NCBI GenBank assembly: GCA_964392315.1
Contig: CAYMOT010000002.1
Span: 41,234-105,233, forward strand
Direction of reading: 5' to 3'
From: an uncultured Candidatus Saccharibacteria bacterium
GTDB lineage: Bacteria; Patescibacteriota; 4484-211; JAGQKX01
Length of the DNA stretch: 64,000 bases
Shown here: positions 2,411 to 62,684 of the stretch, in pieces
Position numbering within the stretch: position 1 is the stretch's first letter
Layout: each line of letters starts with the position of its first letter
Program-made: the position numbers and the translations under genes
The notes under the pieces: model-generated
Told to the model about the DNA's origin: nothing
Database searches by the model: none
The model's input: the letters and a program-made list of their open reading frames with translations, nothing else

Positions 2411-2556
2411 TTAGGTGACCCCTTATATCTTTCGATACAGGGGAAACCATGTTTGTGGAGAGAGACAACTAAGGCAATTATAGACGATGGTTTCGCTATT
2501 TGTCAATGATCTGTCACCACGTTACAATATTTGTAGAAAGGCTGAATTCCTCACCT

Positions 2557-5109
2557 ATGTCGAGTATAACCCTAAACATTATTCTCATTATAAGCACAAT
2601 TGTCGTTATTTCTTTTGCGCTTGCACTCCGTGCCTTAAGAAGACGCCTGCAAGATACGCAAATATCACCGGGTATCAGCGATGGGATGCTCTTAGAAATT
2701 AAGGTGCCGAAGTTTAACGAACAGGGACCTGTTGCGGCAGGAATAATGTTCTCTGCACTCCACGGACTTATCGAAAAGGAAGATGAGCAGTCACATGTCT
2801 CTTTCGAAATCGCCGCGGACAAGACGGGCATTAAGTTTTATACGTATGTGCCTCGTTATTTTGAAAAATTCGTCAAATCTCAAATATATGCGCAGTATCC
2901 CGAGGCAGAGATTTTTGAAGTCGAAGACTATACCCGAACTATCGATGAGGCGAAAGGTGCCATCGCTGCAGCTAATCTTACGCTTTCTAAACCGTATTAC
3001 TTTCCTATAAAGACGTTTCCTGACTTTGAGGTTGACCCATTAGCGGCGATAACGTCGGCAGTTGATGAGCGAGCAGGGGATCAACGGGCATGGTTTCAGG
3101 TTCTGATAAACCCTATTGATGATACCTGGCAAAAGGTAGGGTATGAATACATTGCAGCTGTAAAAAATAGAGAAGATTTTGGCCCAGGAGAAAATGAAAT
3201 AGTAGTTGTCTTACGGGGGATATTTAAAGAGTTCTTTGAAGTATTTATGGACCTGGTGACAAACATTTTTACCGGATCAATAAACGGTGCAACTTCTGAT
3301 GAGAAGAAGAAAGAAGGGGAGAAGCAAAAAGCTCTAACCGCGGGTGAAGAGACTGCGATTGCCTATATAGAGAAAAAAATGTCTCGGCTTGGATTCAAAG
3401 CATCTCTGCGGGTAGTAGGGTATGGTGCGAATCCTGAGGAAGCCTCACGTCAAGTTGGTGCGCTCACTTCCGCGTTGAAGCAGTTTTCCGCAGCAAATCT
3501 CAACAGTTTTGTTACAAACATGCAAGAAGATCCGACTAAGTCTTTGCAAGATTTTAGAGAACGCATACTAGATCCAGGTAATGCAAGCAACCCGTTGATT
3601 TTTGATACCGAGGAGCTTGCCTCCATCTTCCATTTGCCGAATACATCGGTGGCGACCCCAAATATAGCATGGACAAAAGCAAAAAGAATTGAGTATCCAC
3701 TGGAATTACCGGTTGGGATAGAGCCGGTATTGGGGGTTACCTCTTTTAGAGCAGAGGAGATTGAGTTTGGAATAAAAAGAGACGATCGCCGCCGTCACAT
3801 GTACTTGGTAGGAAAAACCGGTACTGGTAAGTCTACGTTGCTCCAACGCATGGCCATTAGTGATATACAGAACGGAGAAGGCATTGCGTTTATTGACCCG
3901 CACGGTGACTCTATCGACCTCATTCTAAACTATATTCCTGATAATCGTGTGGATGACGTAATCCTTTTTGATCCAGCAGACATTTATCATCCCATTGCAA
4001 TGAACATGCTAGAACTTTTTGACCCTGAGCAAAAGAGTCTTGTTGCGAGCGCTTTAATAGAAGTATTCAAGCAGCGATTTGAGTTTAGTTGGGGTCCTCG
4101 TATGGAACACATTTTGCGAAATTGTATCCTGTCTCTTTTGGAAGTGCCTGGAAGTACGCTTCTTGGTATTTCACGCATATTAACTGATCGAACCTACAGA
4201 AGATATATCGTACATTTGTTAGAAGATCCAGTTATGATCGACTTTTGGAACAGTGAATTTCCTCAACTCGAGGAGTCTCGTCAGGGTGCTGAGGCAATCG
4301 CACCTATTCAGAACCGCCTTGGGCAATTCTTATCGAGCCCGACTGTTCGTAATATGGTGAGCAATGCACGTTCGACGGTTCGCCTTGATGAAGTAATGGA
4401 CCAAGGAAAGATTCTTCTAGCAAATCTCTCAAAAGGGAAAATAGGGGATGACAACTCGAATATTTTGGGTACGCTGCTCGTAACTCGACTGCAGTTTGCT
4501 GCGTTATCTCGAGTTAAGATTCCGGAGCAGGACCGAAAAGACTTCTTCCTTTATGTAGATGAGTTTCAAAACTTTGTCACATCATCATTTGCGACGATAT
4601 TGTCTGAGGCACGGAAATATCGGCTTGCACTGATTATCACTCATCAATACCTTGGCCAGCTTGAACAAGCAGGGCTTGCGAACCCGAAAGAAGTGCGGGA
4701 TGCTGTTTTTGGCAACGTAGGAACCATTGCTTCATATACGGTAGGGCAGGAAGATGGTGAAATCCTGTCGAAAGAATTCTCAGAAGTTTTTGACGTGAGT
4801 GACTTTGTGTCTCTTGAGCGCTTCCACTATTACATTAAGCTGATGATTGATCTGACACAAAGCAGACCGTTTAGTGCGAAAGGGTTACCAATCAATACCA
4901 ACTTAAAAACTGATAATGTGCAAAAAGTGATAGAATCATCACGAAAACAGTTTAGCGTGCCACGTGAACTTGTCGAAAAGCGTATTGATATGTGGAATAA
5001 GAAAGTATTTGCGCCGGGAATGGATGACGATAAGGTACACAAGATTAGGGAAGAGATGCGGCTTCGTGCTGATTTGTCACGGGTGCAAAAACTTGAAGAA
5101 CATGTCTAA
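2557..5109 (+). CDS. TraG/TraD/VirD4-like type IV coupling protein (T4CP, DUF87-like AAA ATPase) with N-terminal TM anchor
   Basis: Walker A YLVGKTGTGKST, Walker B FFLYVDEFQNF, and the T4CP-typical downstream RKYRLALIITHQYLGQL. Hydrophobic N-terminus. The ORF begins at 2500; I chose the internal ATG at 2557, just before the TM segment. Confidence 0.6.
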   Translation: MSSITLNIILIISTIVVISFALALRALRRRLQDTQISPGISDGMLLEIKVPKFNEQGPVAAGIMFSALHGLIEKEDEQSHVSFEIAADKTGIKFYTYVPRYFEKFVKSQIYAQYPEAEIFEVEDYTRTIDEAKGAIAAANLTLSKPYYFPIKTFPDFEVDPLAAITSAVDERAGDQRAWFQVLINPIDDTWQKVGYEYIAAVKNREDFGPGENEIVVVLRGIFKEFFEVFMDLVTNIFTGSINGATSDEKKKEGEKQKALTAGEETAIAYIEKKMSRLGFKASLRVVGYGANPEEASRQVGALTSALKQFSAANLNSFVTNMQEDPTKSLQDFRERILDPGNASNPLIFDTEELASIFHLPNTSVATPNIAWTKAKRIEYPLELPVGIEPVLGVTSFRAEEIEFGIKRDDRRRHMYLVGKTGTGKSTLLQRMAISDIQNGEGIAFIDPHGDSIDLILNYIPDNRVDDVILFDPADIYHPIAMNMLELFDPEQKSLVASALIEVFKQRFEFSWGPRMEHILRNCILSLLEVPGSTLLGISRILTDRTYRRYIVHLLEDPVMIDFWNSEFPQLEESRQGAEAIAPIQNRLGQFLSSPTVRNMVSNARSTVRLDEVMDQGKILLANLSKGKIGDDNSNILGTLLVTRLQFAALSRVKIPEQDRKDFFLYVDEFQNFVTSSFATILSEARKYRLALIITHQYLGQLEQAGLANPKEVRDAVFGNVGTIASYTVGQEDGEILSKEFSEVFDVSDFVSLERFHYYIKLMIDLTQSRPFSAKGLPINTNLKTDNVQKVIESSRKQFSVPRELVEKRIDMWNKKVFAPGMDDDKVHKIREEMRLRADLSRVQKLEEHV

Positions 5110-6007
5110 CGAAGAACTACAAAAACTCCAACAAACTTTGTCGCGTTTGCAAGATGAGGTAACACAGGCGCAACAACAGTTGAATACGCTTCTTGCTGTC
5201 GGTGATGACACCCAGCAACCAGCCGAGCCTGCAGAAACTGCCGTAGAGGCCCAGCCTGCTCCGGTTATCGAAGTACTTCCCGAAGAGGAGCGCATACCAA
5301 TCGTAGGTAGAACAGGTATGTTTGATGGGGTGTTTATGATCACGGATGATCAAAAAAAGTTTCAAGTTTCGCCAAACTATATTAGTAAGTCACAACTTGT
5401 AGTGGGGGATAGACTTGAAATTATTGACGTTGATGAAACAGGTTCCAAATATTCATTCAAACAAACAAAAAAGATACAACGTAAAGAGCTGCAGGGGATC
5501 TTGACGAAGAAAGATAATCAGTGGGCTGTGCATACAGACGCGGGAGTGTTCTTTGTGGTAGCGGCTGCGGTGCGTTTTAATAAAGCTGATGTAGGGGATA
5601 CCATAGCGATCGATATTCCAGCAGAGGATGTCGGGGTGCCGGTCGAATGGGCAGCGTTCAAGAAGATACAAAAACAAGGATTACGCGAAACCTATGAACC
5701 AAAGCCGAAGCCATATATGCAGCAAAAAGAGCAAAACGATCAAGCTCCCGGTGAAGAGCAGGAAGTCCCACACGAACAAAAAGATACTGCCGCTGGAACA
5801 GAAATAGTTAAGTCGCGTTTAACCCAACCACAAATCCCAGCTCCAGAGGTTCAACAGCCAGTACCGTCTCAAGACGACACCTTGCCGCAAAAGAAAAGTA
5901 CTGATATGGAGGCTTTGGCAGGTGAGGTCACCGTTGATACCGATAATAGTAAGCAACAGTCAGGGGAGATATCATTACAAGAAGAAGACTTGTGGGAATT
6001 AAGATAA
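5102..6007 (+). CDS. hypothetical coiled-coil protein with Q/E/P-rich acidic C-terminus
   Basis: Start MSNEELQKLQQTLSRLQDEV overlaps the upstream stop (ATGTCTAA), suggesting translational coupling to the T4CP gene. No family recognised. Confidence 0.5.
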   Translation: MSNEELQKLQQTLSRLQDEVTQAQQQLNTLLAVGDDTQQPAEPAETAVEAQPAPVIEVLPEEERIPIVGRTGMFDGVFMITDDQKKFQVSPNYISKSQLVVGDRLEIIDVDETGSKYSFKQTKKIQRKELQGILTKKDNQWAVHTDAGVFFVVAAAVRFNKADVGDTIAIDIPAEDVGVPVEWAAFKKIQKQGLRETYEPKPKPYMQQKEQNDQAPGEEQEVPHEQKDTAAGTEIVKSRLTQPQIPAPEVQQPVPSQDDTLPQKKSTDMEALAGEVTVDTDNSKQQSGEISLQEEDLWELR

Positions 6008-6029
6008 AGGTAGATCTGTATTAAATCAG

Positions 6030-6842
6030 ATGTCACGTCGTAGTCAATTCTTCCTCAGTTCTATTTTGATCATCTTGTGTTTTCCCGTAATAGGGCAGGT
6101 AGTTGGACGTCTTGGGGATATGCCTGTTGCGCTCAGTATTGGTATCTGGGCAGTAGCGAGTCTTGTATTATTTCTATATGTACTCGAGAAAAAGTATACA
6201 TTTCCTGAGCAACTCATTTTTGCCATTATTCCGTTTTTATGCGTCATGCTGGTTGCTACGCTTGGGCTCCAATTTAACATGTTCGCGGTATATCCCATTT
6301 CAGCACTGTGGGTTCTGTATTATGCAATAAGTGTAATCAGTATGTATTTTTTGTTTCTCGCACTCAATATTGTCAATGCTGCGACTGTGCGGACTGTTCC
6401 ATTGTTAAAGGCAGCCCAGACATCAATCTTGGCTATCAGTCTTCTTCTTGCGGTCGCATGGGCATTGTATGTGCAGTATGTGTTGCGTTCGCCAATCATC
6501 GCTGCATGGAGCTGGTTTATTTTTTCATACCTTCTTAGCTTAGCAGTCATTTATTTGGGACAAATTGAGGTAGTACGTGAGTTTACCGCAGTGGTAAAAG
6601 TCCCTCTGATAGAGTCGGGGATAATAGCACTTCTACAAGCATATACCGTTTTTATTACCGCAAGTTGGCAAATGAGCGTATCGATTCGTGTCATATATTG
6701 GGTGTCGTCCCTCGCCACATTCACGATGATTGTACGGGCAAGAAGGCAACGAAGTTTAACACGTAAGTTTGTGCGGGATTTTATGTTGCTACAATGGATT
6801 ATTTTTGCCGCGGTGCTTATTATTGGCCTGCGTGCCATATAA
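6030..6842 (+). CDS. hypothetical polytopic membrane protein (about 8 TM helices)
   Basis: 270-aa ORF that is almost entirely hydrophobic helices. It sits immediately downstream of the T4CP/coiled-coil pair. Confidence 0.5.
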   Translation: MSRRSQFFLSSILIILCFPVIGQVVGRLGDMPVALSIGIWAVASLVLFLYVLEKKYTFPEQLIFAIIPFLCVMLVATLGLQFNMFAVYPISALWVLYYAISVISMYFLFLALNIVNAATVRTVPLLKAAQTSILAISLLLAVAWALYVQYVLRSPIIAAWSWFIFSYLLSLAVIYLGQIEVVREFTAVVKVPLIESGIIALLQAYTVFITASWQMSVSIRVIYWVSSLATFTMIVRARRQRSLTRKFVRDFMLLQWIIFAAVLIIGLRAI

Positions 6843-7457
6843 AGAGCAGGGAAGAGGGGAGAAGGACCCTATAAAACTCGGATAGTGTATAGCGGTGTAT
6901 ATTGAAAAGTAAGCATAAGTTATAAAACTATAGGTTATTAATAATTATAGGGTAATTGTCGTCATGTGGATAACTCAACTGCTAATAGGGGGTTAGTGGA
7001 GACGTTCTGAGAGGGGGTCCTTCCCTCGGTCCGAGAGGGGCTTTTTAGGCCGTTTTATACCAATAAAATGGAGCACTACACGAAATATTACAAAAAATAA
7101 AAACCTATTATTCCCGACTTGTGGGTGCCTGGCAAAAATTCATTGAAAAGCGGGAAATCGACATATAACGTCGCTAATCATACAATTCACGACGTTGTGA
7201 ACATTGCTTTTCTTCTACTCCCCCTCGCACGTGTCAACGAATAAATATGTATATATCCAAATAAACTAATAAGCTTATTAGTTTTTATTCCTCATTTGTG
7301 TATTGGTTTATTATAAATTTGAAATTTGTCATTTTTCCCCTCTCCCCCTCCCCTACCTCAAATAATAAACAAATCCGCCAGCTGGCGGAACAAATAAACT
7401 AATAAGCAAATTTATAAGAACATTTGCTTATTTGTAGTATTTGCTTATTATCTATAT

Positions 7458-8453
7458 ATGGCTCAAGGTCTGTCAGAGGCGTTCATTGACTTCATCGAAT
7501 ATTGTGAACTTGAGAGAGGTTTATCCCATCGTACCGCGGAAAAGTACCACTATCGTTTAATGCGGTTTTTGGATTGGCTTATGCAGGTGAATGGGATACA
7601 AACCCCGTCAATAAAGGATATTACGGAAGAAACAATTAAGGAATTCCGGCTGTATTTACATAGATTCGAAAGCGAACAAACCAAAAAGCAGTTAGCAGCA
7701 TCTACACAGCAACATTATCTGGTAGCACTTCGGGCATTTCTTAAATATCTCAAACGCAAGAAAGGCTTTGACCGTTTGTCTGCTGAGGATATTTTGCTGC
7801 CCAAGGCGCAGGGCAAGACGGTCACGTTTCTCAATGTTGAGCACCTTCAAAGCTTGTTTGCACAACCTGATACGCATGAATTGGCAGGAATGCGAGATCG
7901 CGCGATGCTTGAATTATTATTCAGCACCGGGTTGCGTGTCCAAGAATTGATTAATTTAAATAAAGAAGATATTCCTGAAAAAAGCTCCCAATTCACGGTT
8001 TTAGGCAAAGGTAACCGTTACCGTGTGGTATTTTTGAGTGACGTTGCACGCGATTGGGTGCAATTATACCTTTCACGCCGTATAGATGCATGGCTGCCTC
8101 TTTTTGTTAATACTCATGGTCTAAACCCGACGCGTTCTAAGGGGTCTAAAACCGACGAAAATAAATCAGACGTCCTAGATGACCCGGATGGTGAGAGATT
8201 TCGACTTACGGTTCGTTCTGTACAACGCATTATAAAAAAATATGCAAAAATGGCAGGGTTGAGTCAGGAAGTGACGCCGCATGTAATGCGTCATAGTTTT
8301 GCTACCGATTTGTTAACGCGTGGTGCGGATCTTCGATCTGTGCAGGAGCTTCTGGGGCATAAAAATGTCGCGACCACCCAAATCTACACGCATGTTACCA
8401 ATACACGGCTGCAGGAGGTACACAAAAAGTTTCATAGTACAATAGAGGAATAA
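7458..8453 (+). CDS. xerC: tyrosine site-specific recombinase, XerC/XerD family
   Basis: N-terminal SAM-like domain plus a catalytic domain with RVQEL, HVMRHSFATDLL and GHKNVATTQIYTHV (catalytic Tyr). Contains an atypical ~45-aa insertion (NTHGLNPTRSKGSKTDENKSDVLDDPDGERFRL). Confidence 0.8.
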   Translation: MAQGLSEAFIDFIEYCELERGLSHRTAEKYHYRLMRFLDWLMQVNGIQTPSIKDITEETIKEFRLYLHRFESEQTKKQLAASTQQHYLVALRAFLKYLKRKKGFDRLSAEDILLPKAQGKTVTFLNVEHLQSLFAQPDTHELAGMRDRAMLELLFSTGLRVQELINLNKEDIPEKSSQFTVLGKGNRYRVVFLSDVARDWVQLYLSRRIDAWLPLFVNTHGLNPTRSKGSKTDENKSDVLDDPDGERFRLTVRSVQRIIKKYAKMAGLSQEVTPHVMRHSFATDLLTRGADLRSVQELLGHKNVATTQIYTHVTNTRLQEVHKKFHSTIEE

Positions 8454-8467
8454 TAAATCAGTAACTT

Positions 8468-10795
8468 ATGAACTTTGTAACGAAGCTCGTACGCTATCCC
8501 ATTTGGTTTTATAAAGATGGGTTCCAGTTTTGGATCCGATTTTTTCCCAGGACAATAACGCTGATTGCGGACATGATGGGTATAAAACCTATTTTTAAGC
8601 ATTTTCTGTCGCCTTTCCGCAAAGATACATCACCCGTTGGGTATGGCATTGGAATTTTTATACGGCTTGTGTACGGTGGAGCGGGTATTATTGCCGTTGT
8701 TGTGGCCTTTTTTGGACTTATTGGTGCAATGTTGTTTTATTTCTCCATTCCACTCTTTGGGTTTTTGTTGATCATATCGATATCTGATTACACCTGGCCG
8801 AATATCTTAGGGGTGGTGATTTTGATAGCACCACTCGTGTTCTATATCTTTTTTGTAGCGTTAAGAAATCCCAGACTTACCAAAGACGGTTATCGAGTAG
8901 ACTGGGAGCGGGATGTGATGAAGCGGCTGCAGCTCAATCCTGAGGGTGCAATTGCCGCAAAAGAGCATGGTGATTTTGAGCAATTTTTAAAAGAGCGCGG
9001 ATTAACATTAGTTGATTATGAAATTGTTCGGCAGTGGGTTGCACATCAACGCTGGCTTCGTGAAAACTGGAAATACTGGCAGGATGGGCATTATAAGCGG
9101 TTTGTGGGTACAAACCTTGGGTGGGTTTCTGGGTTTATGCGTGAAGCGAAGTATTTTACAAAAAATTTGACGCAGGATCTTCCCCGCCGAAAAGTATACG
9201 AATGGCAAGGTTTGGATCAAATAATCGAGCGCATTTTGGCTGTTCTGGTGCGGGATACGCACAACAACGTGCTTCTGGTTGGTGATTCTGGGGTAGGGAA
9301 GACCTCGGTGGTATACCAAATCGCAAAAGTCATGAATGAGCGTGGTGGTTATCAAGTGATTGACCTAAATATCGCAGGTATGCTTGCGGGCAGTGGGCAT
9401 GAGGGTGAGTTTGAACGACGATTTATAAAAGCGATGCAGGAATTTCGCAATGCCGAGATTATTTTAGTAATTGAAGACATAGAAAGGCTGGTTTCTGGTG
9501 GAGTTGCACAATATTTTTACCCAGTTTTGGACGAGGCGGACTTCCCTATTATTGCTACAACAACTCCTAAAAGTTTGCGGGACGTGCTTGACCGTGAAAC
9601 GAAATTTTTAAATGCGTTTGAGAAAATTCCTGTAGAGGAACCAGATATTCCTGATGTCCTTTTTATATTGCAGGAGAAAGTCAAGGAATTTGAACGACGG
9701 TACGGTGTCTTTATCACGCATCAAGCACTCAAAGCGACCGTAGAAATCGCGGACAGATATATTGTTGATAAAGCATTCCCTTCTAAAGCCATTGATTTGC
9801 TCGATGAGGCGTGTGCATCAGTGGCAAACGGCAGATTTGAATCAGATAAGCAAAAAACAATTCAGGCAACACACATTGAACAAATGGTGAGCGAGATGAC
9901 CGGTGTCTCATTGGGTGAGGTGACCGAAAATGAGCAAGATAAGCTATTACAACTTGAGCAACTGTTGCATGGATTTATTATTGGCCAGGATGATGCAGTA
10001 CAGGAAATTGCTGCCGCGATGCGGCGTGCGCGTTCTGGACTCAAGTCCGACGAGCGCCCGATCGGGTCTTTCTTGTTTGTCGGTCCGACTGGTGTAGGTA
10101 AGACGCTTACTGCAAAGGTATTTGCTCAGGTATATTTTGGAGATCGCGAGAAAATGGTGCGGTTTGATATGAGTGAGTACTCAGAATTTGGGATGACGGA
10201 ACGATTTTTAGATCGAATTAGCGATCAAGTGCGTTCTACTCCTTTTACGGTACTACTTCTTGATGAGTTTGAAAAAGCGGACCAAAAGATTCATAACCTC
10301 TTTTTGCAGATATTGGAAGATGGCCGTGCTACTGACACACAAGGCAATGTCGTTGATTTCAAAAACACCGTTATTATCGCAACAAGCAATGCTCAAAATG
10401 TTGAGCAAGCTTTTAGTCCAGAATTGCGCAATCGCTTCGATGGGATCGTGACATATAAGCCGCTTAATCCCGATCAGATACTTGAGGTTGTCCGGCTTGA
10501 ATTAGGAGAATTGGGTAATAAGCTGTACGAGAAGGAAATTTCGGTTACCTTCTCCCCTACCCTCATTCAGGCGGTAGCGCAACTTGGATACGACCCCAAA
10601 ATGGGCGGACGACCTATACGCAGAGCTATTCAAGATAATATAGAGAATCCTCTTGCAGATGCACTGATCAAAGAAGACATTCACGCAGGTGATTCAATTT
10701 ATCTGGATTGGGAAAATGACCACCTGGTGATAAAAAATGAGGTTCCCGTCTCCCCTGCCCCTGACCAGCCAGCGGAGGGTGAGGTGCAGGTATAA
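8468..10795 (+). CDS. Clp/Hsp100-family double AAA+ ATPase (ClpB/ClpC-like) with an N-terminal multi-TM domain in place of the Clp N domain
   Basis: D1 Walker A LLVGDSGVGKTS. The D2 signature GQDDAVQEIAAAMRRARSGLKSDERPIGSFLFVGPTGVGKT...LLLDEFEKA...VIIATSN matches ClpB/ClpC D2. The first ~130 aa form 3-4 hydrophobic helices. Confidence 0.75.
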   Translation: MNFVTKLVRYPIWFYKDGFQFWIRFFPRTITLIADMMGIKPIFKHFLSPFRKDTSPVGYGIGIFIRLVYGGAGIIAVVVAFFGLIGAMLFYFSIPLFGFLLIISISDYTWPNILGVVILIAPLVFYIFFVALRNPRLTKDGYRVDWERDVMKRLQLNPEGAIAAKEHGDFEQFLKERGLTLVDYEIVRQWVAHQRWLRENWKYWQDGHYKRFVGTNLGWVSGFMREAKYFTKNLTQDLPRRKVYEWQGLDQIIERILAVLVRDTHNNVLLVGDSGVGKTSVVYQIAKVMNERGGYQVIDLNIAGMLAGSGHEGEFERRFIKAMQEFRNAEIILVIEDIERLVSGGVAQYFYPVLDEADFPIIATTTPKSLRDVLDRETKFLNAFEKIPVEEPDIPDVLFILQEKVKEFERRYGVFITHQALKATVEIADRYIVDKAFPSKAIDLLDEACASVANGRFESDKQKTIQATHIEQMVSEMTGVSLGEVTENEQDKLLQLEQLLHGFIIGQDDAVQEIAAAMRRARSGLKSDERPIGSFLFVGPTGVGKTLTAKVFAQVYFGDREKMVRFDMSEYSEFGMTERFLDRISDQVRSTPFTVLLLDEFEKADQKIHNLFLQILEDGRATDTQGNVVDFKNTVIIATSNAQNVEQAFSPELRNRFDGIVTYKPLNPDQILEVVRLELGELGNKLYEKEISVTFSPTLIQAVAQLGYDPKMGGRPIRRAIQDNIENPLADALIKEDIHAGDSIYLDWENDHLVIKNEVPVSPAPDQPAEGEVQV

Positions 10796-11027
10796 ACATA
10801 TGAATGAAAAAGGAGGGTATCCATTTCCAACAGACATTAAGGATAAGCAAGATGTAACTGAAGGAGCTTTTGCAATTGTTAAAGAGTTTTCTCATCATCC
10901 TGAATGGATTGTTGGTGGAGAAATGGCAAGTTTGAAGAAATGCCGCAGCTGTAGAGTATTATCTCGATGGGAGACTGAATCTTATTTTTGATAGTAGTTG
11001 AGATAAGAGTGAAAAATGGAAGTGAAA

Positions 11028-11190
11028 AGAAAAAGGCCGAAGGGTTCGACCTTCCGGCCTTGCGCGCGTATAGAAGTGGCAGCCAAATGGTGCGCCTGGG
11101 GCGAATGGGCTGGTCTCGCTGACCGCCTTGCGTCTGGCCCCGGCAGCTGTTGCCGCCACTCCTGGGGGTGTGAATCCCCCGTTACAGTTT
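11028..11190. ncRNA. candidate structured RNA (unclassified; SRP RNA, tmRNA fragment or other)
   Basis: A ~160-nt island of ~60% GC in an AT-rich genome. It has several hairpins (GGCCGAAGGGTTCGACCTTCCGGCC; GGGGGTGTGAATCCCCC, which looks like a T-arm). The six-frame ORFs across it are low-complexity Ala/Arg artefacts. Confidence 0.3.
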
Positions 11191-11402
11191 GTCAAATTTT
11201 TTCTTCACAGTCCTCCATGAAGAGGGTAAACATACTAGGTTTGAAATTTGATCTCCACTTGTGGCCAGCAAGTTTCAATTGATCTAGTACCCCTAATAAA
11301 CAACTGCACATACTATAAGACATTAGGTGTCAATGGTAATTTTCTGGAGTGTTTTTGTATGTTGACTAAACAGCTAACGGTGGTTTGTGTCAGTAAATTG
11401 TG

Positions 11403-57304: not shown

Positions 57305-57814
57305 ATGATTCCCCTAGAGCAAAGGGTACGTAATCCCGTAAAGATCGATGTCCCCGGTCTTTGTGTACGCACGCTTGTGGATGAGGTGTTTTGCAGGCGT
57401 GGTGTTTTCGTAGTCCCCTTTCGACGAGGGGATTTCATTCCAGAGAGAGGGGATCTCGTTGCAGAGATTTTGATTATCAATGACCAGAGTGTTCCGATTC
57501 CTTTGGTCTGCCTTCGGGTAAAAAGAGAAGGCAATAGGTACTGGTTCGGGCGGATCTTTCGATTGGTCGATTTTTCCGAAAAGGTTCGTCGAGAAGATGA
57601 GCAAGTTCGGTTGGTCGATGAACAAGGTCGAGAGATTCCTAACACTCCAGAAGATCGGCTCGCTCACATTCTGCGAATGCGTGTCCTTCCTCGGAATGAC
57701 GCACAAAAGAAGCAGTGGGCGTATTGGGGTGATGAATATTGGGTAGCTGCTATCTTCAGCGAACTTCGTCGCCTTAAGGTGCAGGCTGTTCGTGCGGTAG
57801 CCTCGAGGAGGTAG
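57305..57814 (+). CDS. hypothetical protein (Arg-rich), GC-rich region
   Basis: RBS AAGGAG 4 nt before the ATG. 169 aa. No family recognised. Confidence 0.45.
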   Translation: MIPLEQRVRNPVKIDVPGLCVRTLVDEVFCRRGVFVVPFRRGDFIPERGDLVAEILIINDQSVPIPLVCLRVKREGNRYWFGRIFRLVDFSEKVRREDEQVRLVDEQGREIPNTPEDRLAHILRMRVLPRNDAQKKQWAYWGDEYWVAAIFSELRRLKVQAVRAVASRR

Positions 57815-57816
57815 CC

Positions 57817-57912
57817 ATGAGTGCGTTTGGCCGGCTTCTATTGGTCTACTTTGCCTTAATGTGCTTGCTTATGGCGGGGATATTTATGCTCGCCAACATC
57901 CTTGGAGGATGA
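57817..57912 (+). CDS. 31-aa hydrophobic micro-protein (MSAFGRLLLVYFALMCLLMAGIFMLANILGG)
   Basis: GGAGG RBS 5 nt upstream. Its stop overlaps the RBS of the next gene. Not in the ORF track because it is under 60 aa. Confidence 0.35.
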   Translation: MSAFGRLLLVYFALMCLLMAGIFMLANILGG

Positions 57913-57913
57913 C

Positions 57914-58453
57914 ATGACGCATCAAGTGGTGTACGCCCCGTATGGGGCGCGGATTGAGATGGAGTTGGATAGCATACCGTTTCGCGTAGAAATGGGCATG
58001 CACGTGCAGGCGGACACGAAGAGTCTGCTAGGACGGCAGGCGGTTCGCTCGTTGCAGGAATGCAAGTTGCAGCCGCAGCTCTTCGTGACCCTCGATTCTC
58101 GCGGGCTTCCCATCGAGCCAGTGCTGCTTTCGCAGCGGCACGAGGTCTACGGTGTCGAGCTTGCGCTCGCGTGGACCACGCAGGCGTCCAGCTTCGTCGG
58201 CTGGGGGCCGCTGATGGCTCCCTGGATCTACGATCCCAGCTTCGACTGGGAACTGCGCGTCAAAGCTTTGGCGCAAGCGATTGCGGTCAAGCTGTTTCCG
58301 ACGGCGAAGTGCGAGTCAGTGTTCACATTTGCGGGCGGCATCATGATCGCCTATGACACAGACTTGCTGCGTTTGACCAATCGTTCGGCGCAGTTTGAAA
58401 TCCAGATGCCTATGCCCGCAGTGGGTGCTTCGGCCGTCGCTGTGACGGCATAG
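57914..58453 (+). CDS. hypothetical protein
   Basis: GGAGGA RBS 4 nt upstream of the ATG (MTHQVVYAPYG...). 179 aa, Ala/Leu-rich, high-GC third positions. Followed by a terminator. Confidence 0.5.
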   Translation: MTHQVVYAPYGARIEMELDSIPFRVEMGMHVQADTKSLLGRQAVRSLQECKLQPQLFVTLDSRGLPIEPVLLSQRHEVYGVELALAWTTQASSFVGWGPLMAPWIYDPSFDWELRVKALAQAIAVKLFPTAKCESVFTFAGGIMIAYDTDLLRLTNRSAQFEIQMPMPAVGASAVAVTA

Positions 58454-58472
58454 AGAGATAGCTGAATGGCAA

Positions 58473-58508
58473 GGCCGACCCGTCTGACGGGCCGGCCTTT
58501 TGTTTTTT
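58473..58508 (+). terminator. rho-independent terminator
   Basis: GGCCGACCCG-TCTGA-CGGGCCGGCC hairpin followed by TTTTGTTTTTT. Confidence 0.75.
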
Positions 58509-58587
58509 ACTCACATTTTCTCAACAAATTCAGATAACCAGCCTGTAAAAGTATCAATGAGCTCTCATTACAAAAAGGCTTATAGTA

Positions 58588-58617
58588 TTGACATGAGGGT
58601 GTAATTTTTGCTATAAT
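58588..58617 (+). promoter_or_regulatory. near-consensus sigma70 promoter (TTGACA-N18-TATAAT)
   Basis: TTGACA at 58588-58593 and TATAAT at 58612-58617, in an AT-rich spacer upstream of the lipoprotein gene. Confidence 0.55.
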
Positions 58618-58687
58618 GCCGCCAGTTTTCGCACCTCCAGTCCCGAGCGGGTCTGGAAGAATTCACAAGCAGAAGATGGAGGTTTCG

Positions 58688-59362
58688 ATGAAAAAGTTCG
58701 GTTTGTTGTTTGTTTTGTTGCTGGCTCTGGCCCTGGCCGCGTGCGGCGGCAACCCGGCGGCCGATACGACCGGCGGCGCGGCCGCGCCGACGGTGGCCCC
58801 CACAGTCACCCCTGCGGAGACGCCGGAGGGGCAGGATCCCCTACTGGCGGCCCCGGTCGGCAACTCTGGGTACGACAACTGCCTCGATCCGTGGGATCTG
58901 GGGCGGGTGCGCGAGGCCTACAAGTCGAAGATAAGTCCGACAGGTTACGCAGGGACGGTCGTCCTGCTCACCTGGACTCGGGAGGCTGGGCCCCAGAACT
59001 TCGATGAGTGCTACACGAACCGGCATGGCCAATTCGTGTTTACCAAGCACGATGTACCCATCACTGAAGAGCTTTACGAGCGTCTGACCGGCGGCCGGAA
59101 CGACCTGACGGTCCTGGCGCCCGTCCACGCTACGCAGGTACCCTCGGGGTGGGAAGCTTCGATGTGGGTGCATGACTATGTTAATGGTTTCATGACCTAC
59201 GAAGAAGTCAACTCCTACACCCTCTGGGCCTTCCAGAACGACGCAGAAGGCTACCAGATGGTCGCCGGCATGGTGGCGGCCGGCCTCATCGGTGCCTTGC
59301 TCGTTCCCGCGTTGCTCGGGGGCCCGATGGTCCCTGACTGCGGCATGAACAGCTGCGGCTAG
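58688..59362 (+). CDS. lipoprotein (lipobox LAAC) with Ala/Pro/Thr linker and a hydrophobic Cys-rich C-terminus
   Basis: MKKFGLLFVLLLALALAAC|GG signal peptide with a GGAGG RBS. The C-terminal MVAGMVAAGLIGALLVPALLGG TM-like segment ends in DCGMNSCG. The ORF track starts at 58616. Confidence 0.6.
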   Translation: MKKFGLLFVLLLALALAACGGNPAADTTGGAAAPTVAPTVTPAETPEGQDPLLAAPVGNSGYDNCLDPWDLGRVREAYKSKISPTGYAGTVVLLTWTREAGPQNFDECYTNRHGQFVFTKHDVPITEELYERLTGGRNDLTVLAPVHATQVPSGWEASMWVHDYVNGFMTYEEVNSYTLWAFQNDAEGYQMVAGMVAAGLIGALLVPALLGGPMVPDCGMNSCG

Positions 59363-59389
59363 AACGGCCGCAAGGAGAGTAACAATATA

Positions 59390-59428
59390 AAAAGACCCCG
59401 CCCTACTGTAGGACGGGGTCTTTCACGT
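59390..59428. terminator. bidirectional terminator between convergent genes
   Basis: AAAGACCCCGCCCTAC-TG-TAGGACGGGGTCTTT, a near-perfect 15-bp palindrome flanked by A/T runs. Confidence 0.7.
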
Positions 59429-59449
59429 TTATGGGTGTAAATAAAAGCG

Positions 59450-59980
59450 TCAAATACTCACAGATAGTTTCTGATATCCAAGTCTTTCCAAATCTGAGGC
59501 AATGTCATTATAAGACTTCCCTGCTAATCTCCCACCTGCGATAAAGTCTTCTTGGGTGACGTCAGCCAAGCAAAAATCCGGTACCACAAAGTTCTCCTTT
59601 TCTTCTTCAGATGAGAACTCAAAATCTACAAGCACTAAGCCTTCCAAAGCATCCGCGAATACATCCACCTCAGCAGCATGCCCGTTGTAATCAAATGAAT
59701 ATCGAAATTTTCGCAATTTCCTAGCAGGAATATTTCTAAATGCAGCGAATTCGTGCTCTTCCAAATCAATAGTATGCTCTTCATGTTGCGATGCGTCTCC
59801 TCTTTCAATAGGAATCTTTTTGACAAAGGTGTATTTGTCGCCACTTTTTCGAATACGAATTCGAGGATGTGTGGCATCTATGGGTAGATACATATCAATA
59901 ATTTCTTTTTTTGTTGCGTGATGAATGTCGGCGGGGATATATTTTGCCAGAAATGTTAATTCAAGTTCTAATTCAGTCAT
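59450..59980 (-). CDS. CYTH-domain protein (CyaB/thiamine-triphosphatase-like triphosphate tunnel metalloenzyme)
   Basis: RIRIRKSGDKYTFVKK, RKFRYSFDYNGHAAEVDVFADALEGLVLVDFEFSSEEE and FVVPDF match CYTH core strands. AT-rich codon usage like the first part of the window. Confidence 0.6.
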   Translation of the reverse strand: MTELELELTFLAKYIPADIHHATKKEIIDMYLPIDATHPRIRIRKSGDKYTFVKKIPIERGDASQHEEHTIDLEEHEFAAFRNIPARKLRKFRYSFDYNGHAAEVDVFADALEGLVLVDFEFSSEEEKENFVVPDFCLADVTQEDFIAGGRLAGKSYNDIASDLERLGYQKLSVSI

Positions 59981-59994
59981 ACTGCCAAGTGTAG

Positions 59995-60024
59995 CACAAA
60001 AAAAGGGACACCCGGCGGGTGTCC
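59995..60024 (-). terminator. rho-independent terminator (minus strand)
   Basis: GGGACACCCGCCGGGTGTCCC hairpin followed by TTTTTTT on the minus strand, between gene 60061-60414 and the CYTH start. Confidence 0.7.
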
Positions 60025-60060
60025 CAGTGGAGCTACTGCTCCTTTGCGTTGTCTCTCAAA

Positions 60061-60414
60061 CTACTGCCGCCGGCGCGCTCCGTGACGGATCTCGTCTAAC
60101 GCATCAGCGCCATCAACGTCATCGGTGGCGATTTCGGTCTTTCCCGTGTGTTGCTCGAGGCCTTCAATGAAGAAGGCGAAGAGCACCAAGTTCGGTTCTG
60201 CGGTTACGATCTGCAGGCTGTAGCCTCCTTCGAAGAAGAAAGGATACACGCCGATATGGTCGAGGAATCGCTCAAGACTCTCAGGGGTGACGATCTTGTC
60301 GTCAGGCCTGAACACGTAGATGAGCCTGTCGCCGACCAGAATTCCCCAGTTATCCGTACCGAAGAAGTTCGTGAGGAGCCTCTGGACGACTTTCAGAATC
60401 TTCGTTTTGCTCAT
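60061..60414 (-). CDS. hypothetical protein
   Basis: 117-aa ORF with high-GC codon usage. No family recognised. Confidence 0.45.
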   Translation of the reverse strand: MSKTKILKVVQRLLTNFFGTDNWGILVGDRLIYVFRPDDKIVTPESLERFLDHIGVYPFFFEGGYSLQIVTAEPNLVLFAFFIEGLEQHTGKTEIATDDVDGADALDEIRHGARRRQ

Positions 60415-60424
60415 AGAACCCTCC

Positions 60425-60787
60425 TTACGGACGATTTATCCAGAATGTCGTGAGGGTGGCGAATAGTGTAAACACCAACCAAATGGTCTGCCACCTCATC
60501 GACTTTCGGTACATTGCGATGATCATCGCCACGTAGGGCACGATGATCAACAGCGCTATTGGCATACCGATCGAATCCACGCTCACGGCGATTATGCCCA
60601 TACTCAGGGCAGTGGCGACCGATACACGAGAATCAAAGTATGCCATACCGATTGCAGAGGACAGCACGAGAAATGCAGCAATGTATGCACCTTGTTCGCT
60701 TCCGGAGAATACATACCCCATCAGAAAAACGAAAAGTGCAAACTTGCAGATGTCTCGATACCCATTACTTTTGTATGTGTTGTCCAT
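60425..60787 (-). CDS. hypothetical membrane protein (3-4 TM)
   Basis: 120 aa with hydrophobic helices. Confidence 0.5.
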   Translation of the reverse strand: MDNTYKSNGYRDICKFALFVFLMGYVFSGSEQGAYIAAFLVLSSAIGMAYFDSRVSVATALSMGIIAVSVDSIGMPIALLIIVPYVAMIIAMYRKSMRWQTIWLVFTLFATLTTFWINRP

Positions 60788-60796
60788 GGGGCACCT

Positions 60797-61105
60797 CTAA
60801 GCAGCTTCCCTCTCTTCTTCGTCCGGGAAGACGAGGAAGGCAAAGATGGTGATTGTCAGCTCACCGATTGCCAGGACGACTGTCTTGCCTGTGGCGAAGG
60901 GAAGGCGTTCGAAGCCCCCATACTCCATAACCGACTCGATCTGCGCTTCGGTCATGGTCCCTTGGACAATGACCATACAGACGTTGCCATCGATGAAGAA
61001 GTGGAAGTCCACTTCATTTTCGATTGCAAAGTCAAAGGCGTAAGGAAGGGTGTCTCTGACGTACTCTTCCTTTTCGTATCTCGTTCCTACGTATCTCCTT
61101 GTCAT
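60797..61105 (-). CDS. hypothetical protein
   Basis: AAGGAG RBS 5 nt before the ATG (MTRRYVGTRYEKEEY...). 102 aa. Preceded on its strand by a hairpin plus T-tract at 61127-61160. Confidence 0.5.
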   Translation of the reverse strand: MTRRYVGTRYEKEEYVRDTLPYAFDFAIENEVDFHFFIDGNVCMVIVQGTMTEAQIESVMEYGGFERLPFATGKTVVLAIGELTITIFAFLVFPDEEEREAA

Positions 61106-61180
61106 TGTTCTCCTTCTTGCATGAAAAAAGGGTGCCGCCACCTGCGCGGCGCGCACCCTCTTGCTAGTTCAGTTGCGACT

Positions 61181-62683: not shown

Positions 62684-62684
62684 C

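What the first reader, a model, noticed from the sequence alone, without database searches (positions are those of the whole stretch)
6843..10795. XerC/D-like recombinase followed by a membrane-anchored double-AAA+ Clp/Hsp100 ATPase, preceded by a 615-bp non-coding region
The Clp-like ATPase has a 3-4 helix TM domain where the Clp N domain should be, which is unusual for Hsp100 proteins. It lies 14 nt downstream of a tyrosine recombinase that carries an atypical insertion. The upstream 615-bp region is exceptionally long for this genome. It contains a polypyrimidine tract (TTTTCCCCTCTCCCCCTCCCCTACCTC at about 7333-7360), the palindrome CCGCCAGCTGGCGG (about 7376-7389) and mutually exclusive hairpin options around 7030-7075 that end in GCTTTTTAGG, which looks like an attenuator. 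The region could be a dif-like site or chromosome-maintenance locus, or an integrated element boundary.
Basis: partly seen in the sequence, partly recalled or inferred. Interest (0 to 1): 0.6.

Follow-up and report, generated by a model that had tools for sequence, protein, structure and literature searches.

The report
Conserved dif-like site, Xer recombinase, membrane Clp
In this candidate-phylum (WWE3-type) bacterium, the long gap before a Xer-type recombinase gene holds a 28-bp palindrome that is unchanged across distant relatives and is probably the enzyme's own recombination site; the membrane-anchored Clp-like ATPase next door is a stripped-down chaperone relative that is common across this group of bacteria.

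Summary
Window 7458-8453 encodes a catalytically complete Xer-family tyrosine recombinase. Fourteen nt downstream, 8468-10795 encodes a double-AAA+ Hsp100 relative with 3-4 N-terminal membrane helices. The 615-bp gap upstream is the longest of 45 gaps in the window.

The CCGCCAGCTGGCGG palindrome is window-specific. The hairpins look like the upstream operon's terminator.

The key is an invariant 28-bp imperfect palindrome, ACGTCGCTAAT-CATACA-ATTCACGACGT (7168-7195), with the 11-6-11 geometry of a Xer core site. It occurs once per contig in 11 distinct lineages. It lies 100-290 bp upstream of the recombinase in ten of them, although the recombinase itself is only 45-73% identical. A more distant lineage carries a variant with symmetric changes in both arms.

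I read it as a xer/dif-type module, as in XerS/difSL. However, third-codon GC skew has the same sign on both sides, so it is not at a terminus or an origin.

The membrane-anchored Clp is widespread in the Candidate Phyla Radiation. It lacks the N-domain, M-domain, ClpP loop, both pore-loop tyrosines and the D1 arginine fingers.

Verdict: a new variant of known kinds, moderately interesting.

The parts
6843..7457 (+). Conserved non-coding module (615 bp) between an unknown multi-TM protein gene and the recombinase gene
   Evidence: No ORF over 41 aa. A 525-1340 bp gap sits at the same place in L004-L010, L013, L014 and L015, with the same ordered blocks. No Rfam match.
6849..6866 (+). 5' purine block (GGGAAGAGGGGAGAAGGA), related to the AG(T/C)AGGGG motif of relatives
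   Evidence: It is complementary to the pyrimidine blocks, but duplex energies are no better than shuffles and show no strand preference.
6965..6973 (+). TGTGGATAA, a perfect DnaA-box sequence (TTATCCACA on the minus strand), within the conserved block CATGTGGATAACT..TGCTAA
   Evidence: Present in 9 of 11 homologous gaps as the only perfect box. There is no cluster of boxes.
7003..7047 (+). Hairpin(s) followed by a T-run (CTTTTTAGG); probably the intrinsic terminator of the upstream operon
   Evidence: Terminator-like hit at 7022-7040 and direct repeat D6. Relatives have different stems followed by the conserved ATTTTAG.
7150..7158 (+). GCGGGAAAT motif (GCGGGAAAA in relatives)
   Evidence: It lies 5' of the core site in the window, L004, L006 and L007. 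It lies 3' of the core, on the same strand, in L009, L010, L012, L013 and L016.
7168..7195 (.). Invariant 28-bp imperfect palindrome ACGTCGCTAAT-CATACA-ATTCACGACGT (11-6-11); candidate core recombination site (dif-like) of the adjacent recombinase
   Evidence: It occurs once in the window even at 3 mismatches, with 0 expected. The 24-nt core GTCGCTAATnnnACAATTCACGAC is identical in L004-L010, L012-L014 and L016, and only central-region positions 12 and 14 vary. L015 has a variant with symmetric arm changes. It lies 100-290 bp upstream of a Xer gene in ten contig lineages and 518 bp upstream in L015; in L012 a different gene follows.
7218..7226 (+). Proximal pyrimidine block CTCCCCCTC (ACTCCCC motif), 45-48 nt after the start of the 24-nt core
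   Evidence: Found at the same distance in 7 of 12 loci by the strict tract search; looser ACTCCCC-type motifs sit there in L008, L009, L010, L014 and L016.
7332..7359 (+).
   Evidence: A CACTCCCC-type block lies 162-193 nt after the core start in 7 of 12 loci by the strict tract search.
7375..7388 (.). Palindrome CCGCCAGCTGGCGG (window-specific)
   Evidence: It lies in a stretch absent from L004, L006 and L007. It scores as a minus-strand terminator-like site.
7458..8453 (+). Xer-family tyrosine recombinase (331 aa) with a lineage-specific insertion at about residues 220-237
   Evidence: Pfam Phage_integrase plus SAM-like N domain. NCBIfam XerC 244 bits and XerD 242 bits, both below their cut-offs. 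The best solved relative is E. coli XerD, 1.5e-36. The catalytic R, K, HxxR, H and Y are conserved in all nine relatives aligned. It is the only tyrosine recombinase in the 64 kb.
8468..10795 (+). Membrane-anchored, degenerate Hsp100/Clp-family double-AAA+ ATPase (775 aa); membrane helices within residues 10-135 (about nt 8495-8872)
   Evidence: The D2 motifs are intact. The D1 arginine fingers and both pore-loop tyrosines are absent, the D2 GYVG pore-loop segment is deleted, and there is no Clp_N, M-domain or ClpP-docking loop.

Best explanation
This is a conserved chromosomal housekeeping locus of a WWE3-type (Candidate Phyla Radiation) bacterium. It is not a mobile-element edge.

The site and the recombinase. 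The 615-bp gap is a conserved non-coding module. Its centre is an invariant 28-bp imperfect palindrome (7168-7195) with two 11-bp arms around a 6-bp centre. I infer that this is the core recombination site of the Xer-family recombinase encoded just downstream. That would make it a xer/dif 'module' of the kind known for the single-recombinase systems XerS/difSL and XerH/difH. In this model:
- One recombinase monomer binds each arm.
- Two sites synapse.
- The catalytic tyrosines cut at the edges of the 6-bp centre.
- Strand exchange unlinks sister chromosomes (dimer resolution, possibly decatenation).

Because the site is not at a GC-skew switch, it would have to work without terminus positioning, as reported for Sulfolobus. 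The conserved flanking motifs may act as accessory sequences or as the promoter/operator.

The Clp-like gene. The downstream gene, co-transcribed in this lineage, is not ClpC. It belongs to a widespread CPR family of membrane-anchored Hsp100 relatives. In these, only the second ATPase ring looks active, and the polypeptide-gripping pore tyrosines, adaptor domains and ClpP-docking loop are missing. It most likely acts as a membrane-associated remodelling ATPase. Its link to the recombinase is probably synteny, not mechanism.

Shown: sequence anatomy, conservation and gene linkage. Inferred: binding, cleavage and biological role.
For: Evidence for the site:
- The 24-nt core is identical in 11 distinct contig lineages whose recombinases are 45-73% and whose Clp proteins are 30-74% identical to the window's. 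The rest of the gap averages 49% column identity.
- The only variable positions (12 and 14) fall in the 6-bp centre. The dyad axis lies between positions 14 and 15, which gives exactly 11-6-11.
- L015, a distant lineage, has ACGTCTCTAAA-GATACA-TTTAAAGACGT. Positions 6/23 and 11/18 changed symmetrically.
- The site is upstream of, and on the same strand as, the Xer gene in all but one case. This holds in L014 and L015, where the other neighbours differ.
- There is one copy per contig and one in the 64-kb window. Half-sites are not enriched.

Evidence for the recombinase:
- It has all catalytic residues.
- It is closest to XerC/XerD/XerA.

Precedents in the literature:
- A site next to the gene is described as a hallmark of single-recombinase Xer systems (PMC5357621).
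- Archaeal dif sites were found by the same logic (PMC2958812).
- A functional dif outside fork-fusion zones is documented in Sulfolobus (PMC3020120).

Evidence for the Clp reading:
-.
- In another CPR lineage the Clp gene is unlinked to any Xer gene.
Against: - GC3 skew is positive on both sides of the site in the window and in eight of the nine related loci with genes on both sides, including minus-strand genes. In L015 it is weak and near zero on both sides. The site is therefore not where a classical dif should be.
- In L012 the whole non-coding module is followed by an unrelated membrane protein gene rather than a recombinase.
- The site is 100-520 bp from the gene and embedded in other conserved motifs (DnaA box, GCGGGAAAA, pyrimidine blocks) that the model does not explain.
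- It matches E. coli dif at only 12 of 28 positions (my own comparison from the known dif sequence).
- Whole genomes were not available. Single-copy status and the absence of a second Xer paralogue or of FtsK are untested.
- No binding or cleavage data exist.
Confidence: 0.5

Rival explanations
1. The palindrome is a promoter-overlapping operator. A dimeric repressor, possibly the recombinase itself or another factor, binds it to control transcription of the xer-clp operon. No recombination happens there.
For: - A sigma-70-like match, TCGACA-17-TACAAT (7158-7186), puts the -10 hexamer inside the centre of the palindrome.
- The off-terminus position is no problem for this model.
- Symmetric arm changes in L015 fit any dimeric DNA binder.
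Against: - The -35 part is not conserved in relatives.
- Promoter-like hits in the region are at chance level: 6 found against 5.4 expected.
- Identity at 24 of 24 positions across lineages with 45-50% identical recombinases is far more than operators usually show, but is typical of dif sites.
- The 11-6-11 geometry, with variation confined to the 6-bp centre, matches Xer sites.
- In L012 the site is kept without the recombinase gene downstream.
Confidence: 0.2
2. The whole ~500-nt module is a gene for a new large structured non-coding RNA. The palindrome is a conserved hairpin, and purine and pyrimidine blocks close the fold.
For: - The plus strand of 6843-7365 folds with z = -2.7 and pairs the 5' purine block with the 3' pyrimidine tract.
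- The module keeps all its blocks in L012 without the recombinase gene.
- Some lineages show G-U-compatible changes at positions 1-2/27-28 of the palindrome.
- Compact CPR genomes rarely keep 500+ bp of non-coding DNA.
Against: - No Rfam family matches, even at E up to 5-10, in the window or in the L015 gap. No family reaches its gathering score in the window or in eight related loci.
- RNAalifold on four sequences gives only -36 kcal/mol, with a covariation term of -2.6.
- Purine/pyrimidine duplex energies are no better than shuffles, and neither strand is favoured.
- The 16 'loop' nucleotides are invariant while the outer stem positions are not.
- The GCGGGAAAA motif sits 5' of the palindrome in one group and 3' of it in another.
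- A terminator-like hairpin lies inside the supposed RNA.
Confidence: 0.13
3. The module is a replication origin or another DnaA-controlled replication element (perfect DnaA box, AT-rich stretches, repeated CTATAGG motifs, gyrB/gyrA/holB nearby).
For: - The perfect TTATCCACA box is conserved in 9 of 11 gaps.
- CTATAGG repeats and AT-rich tracts are present.
- gyrA, gyrB and holB follow the locus.
Against: - Only one perfect box occurs per gap. Counts at up to 2 mismatches are near shuffle expectation in 7 of 11 gaps and at most about three-fold above it in L004, L008 and L010.
- GC3 skew does not change sign across the site in any lineage.
- No dnaA or dnaN was found among the ten large window ORFs scanned against Pfam, and none appears among the genes called in the related contigs.
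Confidence: 0.04
4. The gap marks the edge of an integrated mobile element whose integrase is the recombinase (an att site).
For: - A tyrosine recombinase sits next to a palindromic site.
- A TrwB/TraD-like P-loop ATPase lies upstream.
Against: - Gene order on both sides is conserved down to 37% Clp identity.
- GC content is even across the locus.
- There is no second copy of the site.
- Viral contigs give no hits.
- PADLOC gives only generic P-loop matches.
- The recombinase scores as XerC/D/A, not as a phage integrase subfamily.
Confidence: 0.03

Closest known systems
XerS/difSL (streptococci, lactococci) and XerH/difH (Helicobacter, Campylobacter): single-recombinase Xer modules
   Same: One Xer-type tyrosine recombinase has its imperfect-palindrome site next to its own gene. 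The arms are about 10-11 bp, and the recombinase lacks XerD's FtsK-contact residues (PMC5357621).
   Different: - The centre is 6 bp here, against 11 bp in difSL.
- The site is 100-520 bp from the gene, inside a 0.5-1.3 kb conserved non-coding module.
- It is not at a GC-skew switch.
- The protein scores higher against XerC/XerD (244/242 bits) than against XerS (129.5 bits), and XerH is the most distant of the solved Xer relatives.
- FtsK dependence is unknown.
Archaeal XerA/dif, especially Sulfolobus
   Same: A single recombinase acts on a 28-bp 11-6-11 site. The site is highly conserved among relatives and was found by the same in-silico logic. In Sulfolobus the functional dif lies outside the fork-fusion zones and works without FtsK (PMC2958812; PMC3020120).
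   Different: - This is a bacterial lineage.
- Here the site is next to the gene, whereas in Thermococcales it is not.
- The NCBIfam XerA score is 199 bits, below its cut-off of 220.
Canonical XerC/XerD-dif, and plasmid cer/psi sites with accessory sequences
   Same: The recombinase fold and catalytic residues match, and E. coli XerD is the best solved relative. The site has 28-bp 11-6-11 geometry. On the other strand its centre reads TGTATG, against TGTATA in E. coli dif (my own knowledge of the dif sequence). Conserved flanks could play the role of cer/psi accessory sequences (inference).
   Different: - Only one recombinase gene is seen.
- Only 12 of 28 positions match E. coli dif.
- The site is not at the terminus.
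- XerD's QRAQQMTRQ region is replaced by an insertion.
- Both NCBIfam equivalog cut-offs are missed.
ClpC / ClpB / ClpA (class I Hsp100 unfoldases)
   Same: It has two AAA+ modules plus the D2-small domain. The predicted fold matches ClpC1/ClpB/ClpA (Foldseek E about 1e-40 or better, target TM-score 0.65-0.78). D2 Walker A/B, sensor 1, arginine finger and sensor 2 are intact.
   Different: - N-terminal membrane helices stand in place of Clp_N.
- There is no M-domain and no ClpP-docking loop.
- The D1 pore tyrosine is His, and the D2 GYVG loop is deleted.
- The D1 arginine fingers are lost (RR to NA), and the D1 Walker B reads ED instead of DE.
- All NCBIfam Clp equivalog cut-offs are missed by a factor of about 2.6 or more.
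Torsins (membrane-associated Clp/Hsp100-related AAA+ ATPases of the eukaryotic ER)
   Same: These are Hsp100-related ATPases held at a membrane that lack aromatic pore-loop residues and depend on partners for activity (my own knowledge; ER localisation and activators in PMC4358337 and PMC4999309, listed).
   Different: Torsins have a single AAA+ module, are eukaryotic and lumenal, and lack their own arginine finger. Here D2 keeps its arginine finger. No homology beyond the Clp D2 family was tested.

Membership tests
Single-recombinase xer/dif module (XerS/difSL, XerH/difH type) | Tyrosine recombinase with the complete catalytic set (R, K, HxxR, H/W, Y) | tested here: met
   GLRVQE, GKGNR, HVMRHSFAT, LGHKN and IYTHV are conserved in all nine aligned relatives and align to XerD's active site.
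Single-recombinase xer/dif module (XerS/difSL, XerH/difH type) | Site made of two roughly 11-bp imperfect inverted arms around a short central region | tested here: met
   ACGTCGCTAAT / CATACA / ATTCACGACGT. The arms match at 9 of 11 positions, and the dyad lies between positions 14 and 15.
Single-recombinase xer/dif module (XerS/difSL, XerH/difH type) | Site genetically linked to the recombinase gene | tested here: met
   The site is upstream on the same strand in the window, L004, L006-L010, L013, L014, L016 and (as a variant) L015. L012 is the one exception.
Single-recombinase xer/dif module (XerS/difSL, XerH/difH type) | Site highly conserved among related genomes and present once per chromosome | tested here: inconclusive
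   Conservation is met: the 24-nt core is identical in 11 lineages. There is one copy per contig and per 64-kb window, but no complete genome was available.
Single-recombinase xer/dif module (XerS/difSL, XerH/difH type) | Site located at the replication terminus (GC-skew switch) | tested here: not met
   GC3 skew is +0.13 to +0.33 on both sides in the window. It also has the same positive sign on both sides in L004, L006-L011 and L013, and is near zero on both sides in L015.
Single-recombinase xer/dif module (XerS/difSL, XerH/difH type) | Recombinase binds and recombines the site; loss gives segregation defects; FtsK dependence | not testable with these tools
   This needs biochemistry or genetics. 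No FtsK gene was seen among the ten large window ORFs scanned, but the genome is incomplete.
Canonical XerC/XerD-dif | Two paralogous recombinases that reach the XerC and XerD equivalog scores | tested here: not met
   XerC scores 244 bits (cut-off 335) and XerD 242 bits (cut-off 330). Only one tyrosine recombinase lies in the 64 kb. The rest of the genome is unseen.
Canonical XerC/XerD-dif | XerD residues that contact FtsK-gamma (RQ...QQ region) | tested here: not met
   FPSQRAQQMTRQ of XerD aligns to DDPDGERFRLTVRS, which is preceded by an 18-aa insertion. The residue motif is cited from PMC5357621.
ClpC / ClpB / ClpA (Hsp100 class I) | Two AAA+ modules with AAA_lid_9 and ClpB_D2-small | tested here: met
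   Pfam hits; alignment to ClpC; fold match.
ClpC / ClpB / ClpA (Hsp100 class I) | Clp_N substrate/adaptor domain | tested here: not met
   No Clp_N hit on the full protein, nor on residues 1-262 at E up to 1. Helices 144-200 form only a small bundle.
ClpC / ClpB / ClpA (Hsp100 class I) | Aromatic pore loops in D1 (KYRG) and D2 (GYVG) | tested here: not met
   The D1 sequence is GSGHEG. The D2 loop is deleted (12 aa). The tyrosines are absent in nearly all 57 membrane-type homologues aligned, with a D1 aromatic left only in P0014, P0016 and P0044.
ClpC / ClpB / ClpA (Hsp100 class I) | ClpP-docking loop (ClpC/ClpA) or M-domain coiled coil (ClpB/ClpC) | tested here: not met
   About 30 residues carrying the VGF loop and about 60 residues of the M-domain have no counterpart in the alignment to B. 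subtilis ClpC.
ClpC / ClpB / ClpA (Hsp100 class I) | Curated equivalog score | tested here: not met
   ClpB scores 402 against a cut-off of 1232, and ClpA 376 against 993.
Bacterial oriC | Cluster of DnaA boxes next to an AT-rich unwinding element, at the GC-skew minimum | tested here: not met
   There is one perfect box per gap, counts are mostly near shuffle expectation, and the skew does not change sign.
Known structured RNA families (Rfam 15) | Covariance-model match | tested here: not met
   Nothing reaches a gathering score in the window or in eight related loci. Only chance-level hits appear at E up to 10.

The most novel reading that the evidence does not exclude
WWE3-type CPR bacteria resolve or unlink sister chromosomes with an off-terminus, FtsK-independent Xer system. 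Selectivity would come from a ~500-bp conserved accessory region around a 28-bp core site. The co-transcribed membrane-anchored AAA+ protein, which lacks polypeptide-gripping pore loops, would serve as the membrane-tethered motor or activator for the recombinase in place of FtsK.
Probability: 0.1. Interest if true: 0.8.

Novelty: new variant of a known kind. Interest (0 to 1): 0.5.

Why it matters
Chromosome-dimer resolution has not been described for the Candidate Phyla Radiation in the literature I could search. A ready-made candidate site plus its recombinase makes the question directly testable in vitro. The off-terminus position would extend to bacteria a situation so far shown only in Sulfolobus.

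The membrane-anchored, pore-loop-less Hsp100 family is widespread in CPR genomes and is routinely annotated as 'ClpC'. That annotation predicts a ClpP-coupled unfoldase, which the sequence features contradict. Metabolic and proteostasis reconstructions for these organisms may therefore be wrong on this point.

Tried and rejected
- Rfam scans found only tRNAs or chance hits. These covered the window at gathering scores, the two long gaps at E up to 10, eight related loci at gathering scores, and the L015 gap at E up to 5.
- tRNA/tmRNA scan: only tRNA-Val at 55.5 kb.
- The viral-contig scan for the site gave 0 hits.
- CIRCE (HrcA) operator idea for GAGTGCTAA in the DnaA-box block: rejected, because the left half-site is absent (read).
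- parS idea for TTCACG in the right arm: rejected, because there is no parS palindrome.
- Small-ORF reading of the palindrome: rejected, because the TAA variant gives a stop in one frame, all third positions are invariant, and the flanks are not conserved.
- Long-range purine/pyrimidine 'closing helix': whole-arm duplexfold was uninformative (one search timed out). Block-wise energies were no better than shuffles and had no strand bias.
- DnaA-box clustering test: counts are mostly near shuffle expectation and there is no cluster of strong boxes.
- Half-site enrichment in the window: negative.
- PADLOC gave only generic P-loop/AAA matches. The PHROGs call failed on a wrong coordinate and was not repeated.
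- Three extra contig look-ups (P0013, P0010, P0007) were too short to include the gap.
- Literature searches for CPR Xer/dif, CPR membrane Clp and WWE3 GC skew found nothing specific.

Full report
**What is there**

The window is a 42-44% GC chromosome segment of a Candidate Phyla Radiation bacterium. The best named relatives of the Clp-like protein come from candidate division WWE3.

Around the finding, the plus strand carries these features in order:
- a membrane-anchored TrwB/TraD-like P-loop ATPase (2500-5109);
- two unknown proteins (5114-6007 and 6030-6842);
- a 615-bp gap (6843-7457);
- a tyrosine recombinase (7458-8453);
- 14 nt later, a 775-aa double-AAA+ Clp/Hsp100-like protein (8468-10795);
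- a 607-bp gap;
- gyrA, gyrB and holB on the minus strand.

The gap has no ORF longer than 41 aa. It is the longest of 45 inter-ORF gaps (median 52 bp), although gaps of 607, 556, 476 and 474 bp also exist.

**The locus is conserved chromosome, not an element edge**

Contigs carrying Clp homologues of 74%, 74%, 56%, 37% and 37% identity (L004, L006, L007, L008, L009) share one gene order. It runs Na+/H+ exchanger, LytR_C protein, the ATPase, two unknown genes, a 525-758-bp gap, the recombinase and the Clp-like gene. In L007 and L008, gyrA/gyrB follow. Composition is even across the locus. This rules out an integrated-element boundary.

**The invariant site**

Aligning the gaps shows that most of the sequence drifts, with a mean column identity of 49%. 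One block does not drift: GTCGCTAAT-yAw-ACAATTCACGAC. A pattern scan of the metagenome collection found five more contigs (L010-L014), each with one copy. A further Clp-homologue contig (L016) also has it.

In the window it occurs once even with three mismatches allowed, where none is expected. Its half-sites are not enriched.

With two flanking bases on each side, the site reads ACGTCGCTAAT-CATACA-ATTCACGACGT (7168-7195). The dyad axis lies between positions 14 and 15. The two 11-bp arms match at 9 of 11 positions. The only positions that vary among lineages (12 and 14) lie in the 6-bp centre. This is the geometry of Xer core sites.

L015 is a more distant lineage in which the recombinase and Clp genes are 5 kb apart. 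It has ACGTCTCTAAA-GATACA-TTTAAAGACGT 518 bp upstream of its recombinase. Positions 6/23 and 11/18 have changed symmetrically.

The site lies on the same strand as a Xer-type gene and 100-290 bp upstream of it in ten contig lineages. These include L014, whose other neighbours are a PIN protein and a DinB-type polymerase, with no ATPase or Clp gene. The recombinases in these contigs are only 45-73% identical to the window's.

There is one exception. In L012 the entire non-coding module is followed by an unrelated 437-aa membrane protein.

**The recombinase**

It has the SAM-like N domain and the catalytic domain. It scores about equally against the XerC and XerD models (244 and 242 bits), below both curated cut-offs, and then against XerA (199 bits). 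Its best solved relative is E. coli XerD (1.5e-36).

The catalytic R, K, HxxR, H and Y are conserved in all nine relatives aligned. The 'atypical insertion' is real. It is 18 aa long relative to XerD, varies from about 13 to 70 aa among relatives, and carries the motif RSKGSKxDE...DDPDGERFRL. It sits exactly where XerD has FPSQRAQQMTRQ. The Xer review names that segment as the FtsK-contact residues, and XerS also lacks them (PMC5357621). No second tyrosine recombinase lies in the 64 kb.

**Interpretation of the site**

The published hallmark of single-recombinase Xer systems is that the site sits next to the gene, 'acting as a single module' (PMC5357621). Archaeal dif sites were predicted by the same logic used here: 11-15-bp inverted repeats, a 4-10-bp spacer, a non-coding location and conservation among relatives. 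Those sites share only 14 of 28 positions with bacterial dif (PMC2958812).

By my own comparison with the E. coli dif sequence, the present site shares 12 of 28 positions. Its centre reads TGTATG on the other strand, against TGTATA in E. coli. I therefore take the site to be the recombinase's own core site.

**The main difficulty: position**

Third-codon-position GC skew on the plus strand is +0.18 to +0.33 for the five genes to the left. It is +0.13 to +0.23 for the five genes to the right, including the minus-strand genes gyrA, gyrB and holB. Because minus-strand genes behave the same way, the skew is a strand effect and not a transcription effect.

The same holds in L004, L006-L011 and L013. 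In L015 the skew is weak and shows no switch. The site therefore lies inside a replichore, with the plus strand leading. It is neither a classical terminus dif nor an origin.

A functional dif outside the fork-fusion zones is documented for Sulfolobus (PMC3020120), so the position weakens the reading but does not exclude it.

**The rest of the gap**

Several further blocks keep their order and roughly their distance from the core:
- a 5' purine block (AG[T/C]AGGGG);
- CTATAGG repeats;
- a perfect DnaA box, TGTGGATAA (6965-6973 in the window), present in 9 of 11 gaps;
- a hairpin followed by ATTTTAG;
- GCGGGAAAA;
- an ACTCCCC block at +45-48;
- a second pyrimidine block at +162-193.

I tested three explanations for these blocks.

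1. Origin. Each gap has only one perfect DnaA box. Counts at up to two mismatches are near shuffle expectation in most gaps and at most about three-fold above it. The skew does not switch.

2. Structured RNA.
   - Rfam finds nothing in the window or in eight related loci.
   - The plus strand folds with z = -2.7 and the minus strand with z = -1.8.
   - RNAalifold on four sequences is weak.
   - Pairing between the purine and pyrimidine blocks is no better than in shuffled sequence and favours neither strand.
   - GCGGGAAAA lies 5' of the core in one group and 3' of it in the other. That is hard to fit to a fixed fold.

3. Promoter/operator. A sigma-70-like match places its -10 hexamer in the centre of the palindrome. 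However, the -35 is not conserved, and such matches occur at chance frequency.

None of these is excluded outright, and I carry them as rivals. The hairpin plus T-run at 7003-7047 is best read as the terminator of the upstream operon. Relatives have other stems at that place and do not share the 'mutually exclusive' arms. The CCGCCAGCTGGCGG palindrome lies in a stretch that the closest relatives lack.

**The Clp-like protein**

Hydropathy and an AlphaFold2 model (mean pLDDT 82) show helices at residues 10-36, 56-103 and 109-132. A small helical bundle (144-200) and two AAA+ modules follow. The fold matches ClpC1, ClpB and ClpA.

Residue-level alignment to B. subtilis ClpC, plus a family alignment, show the following:
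- There is no Clp_N domain, no M-domain and no ClpP-docking loop.
- The D1 pore loop reads GSGHEG instead of AGxKYRG.
- The D1 arginine fingers are lost (RR to NA).
- The D1 Walker B reads ED instead of DE.
- A 12-aa deletion removes the D2 GYVG pore loop.
- D2 Walker A/B, sensor 1, arginine finger and sensor 2 are intact.

All NCBIfam Clp equivalog cut-offs are missed by a wide margin.

The architecture is not peculiar to this window. Of the 120 best homologues, 57 have N-terminal hydrophobic segments. Nearly all of them lack the pore tyrosines, none keeps the paired D1 arginine fingers, and many have a degenerate D1 Walker A. They come from WWE3, Portnoybacteria and 'Patescibacteria group' records and are named ClpC by their sources.

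The particular N-terminal domain of the window protein is narrow. It has 11 cluster representatives among 1.84 billion, and the full-length ones are 792-901 aa.

Linkage to the recombinase holds in 12 of 13 WWE3-type contigs. In another CPR lineage the gene sits between rplJL and the mraZ-ftsI division cluster, with no recombinase nearby. I therefore treat the xer-clp pairing as lineage synteny and probable co-transcription, not as evidence of a shared mechanism. I found no paper describing this family.

**Verdict**

The most likely reading (about 0.5) is a xer/dif-type module with an unusually large conserved non-coding context and an off-terminus position. It is followed by a CPR-wide, membrane-anchored, D1-degenerate Hsp100 relative that should not be called ClpC.

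This is a new variant of known kinds. The boldest reading still open is an FtsK-independent, accessory-sequence-dependent resolution system that uses the membrane AAA+ protein as its motor. I put that at about 0.1.

Noticed in passing
window 10796-11402: The second long gap (607 bp) holds a possible 63-aa ORF (10800-10991). It is followed by a roughly 150-nt GC-rich segment (11028-11200, clearly GC-richer than the ~43% GC around it). On the minus strand this folds into a long hairpin ending in a canonical terminator (z = -3.5). It has no Rfam match and is absent from L007, where Clp and gyrA are 56 bp apart. It could be a gyrBA 3' UTR element or a small RNA.
   Followed up: partly
window 57500-64000: GC content jumps to 51-61%, from about 42% elsewhere. 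This may be a compositional island, foreign DNA or an assembly join. The ORFs there were not examined.
   Followed up: no
window 2500-6842 (and L004, L006-L010): A conserved three-gene set lies upstream of the gap: a membrane-anchored TrwB/TraD/HerA-like P-loop ATPase (Pfam DUF8128 in relatives), a protein with a low-complexity N-terminal part, and a multi-TM protein. It travels with the locus in most WWE3-type contigs but is absent in L014 and L015. Its function is unknown; an FtsK-like role was not tested.
   Followed up: partly
window 6965-6973; the same block in L004, L006-L008, L010, L012, L013 and L015: A perfect DnaA-box sequence (TGTGGATAA, often TGTGGATAACTGCTA) is conserved 200-380 bp upstream of the palindrome, although the locus is not at a skew switch. 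Its role is unexplained.
   Followed up: partly
L014 828-872: An 11-nt direct repeat, GACATGGCGCG, occurs on both sides of the inner 20 nt of the core site. It overlaps the outer arm positions. This may be chance or a trace of a past recombination event.
   Followed up: no
L004 10958-18238 and L006 10467-17993: About 7 kb of minus-strand genes without Pfam hits, with GC3 skew near zero, follows the Clp gene in place of gyrA/gyrB. In L004 the block ends at two tRNA genes. It looks like an inserted island.
   Followed up: no
L020 7001-9565: In another CPR lineage the membrane-type Clp homologue (with a weak Clp_N hit) lies between rplJ/rplL and the mraZ-rsmH-ftsI division/cell-wall cluster.
   Followed up: partly
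PDB chain 9i5v_14: A 401-aa chain labelled 'Ribosome-associated translation inhibitor RaiA' matches the recombinase over residues 12-323 (E = 3.5e-23). Either the label is wrong or the chain is a tyrosine recombinase-like protein.
   Followed up: no
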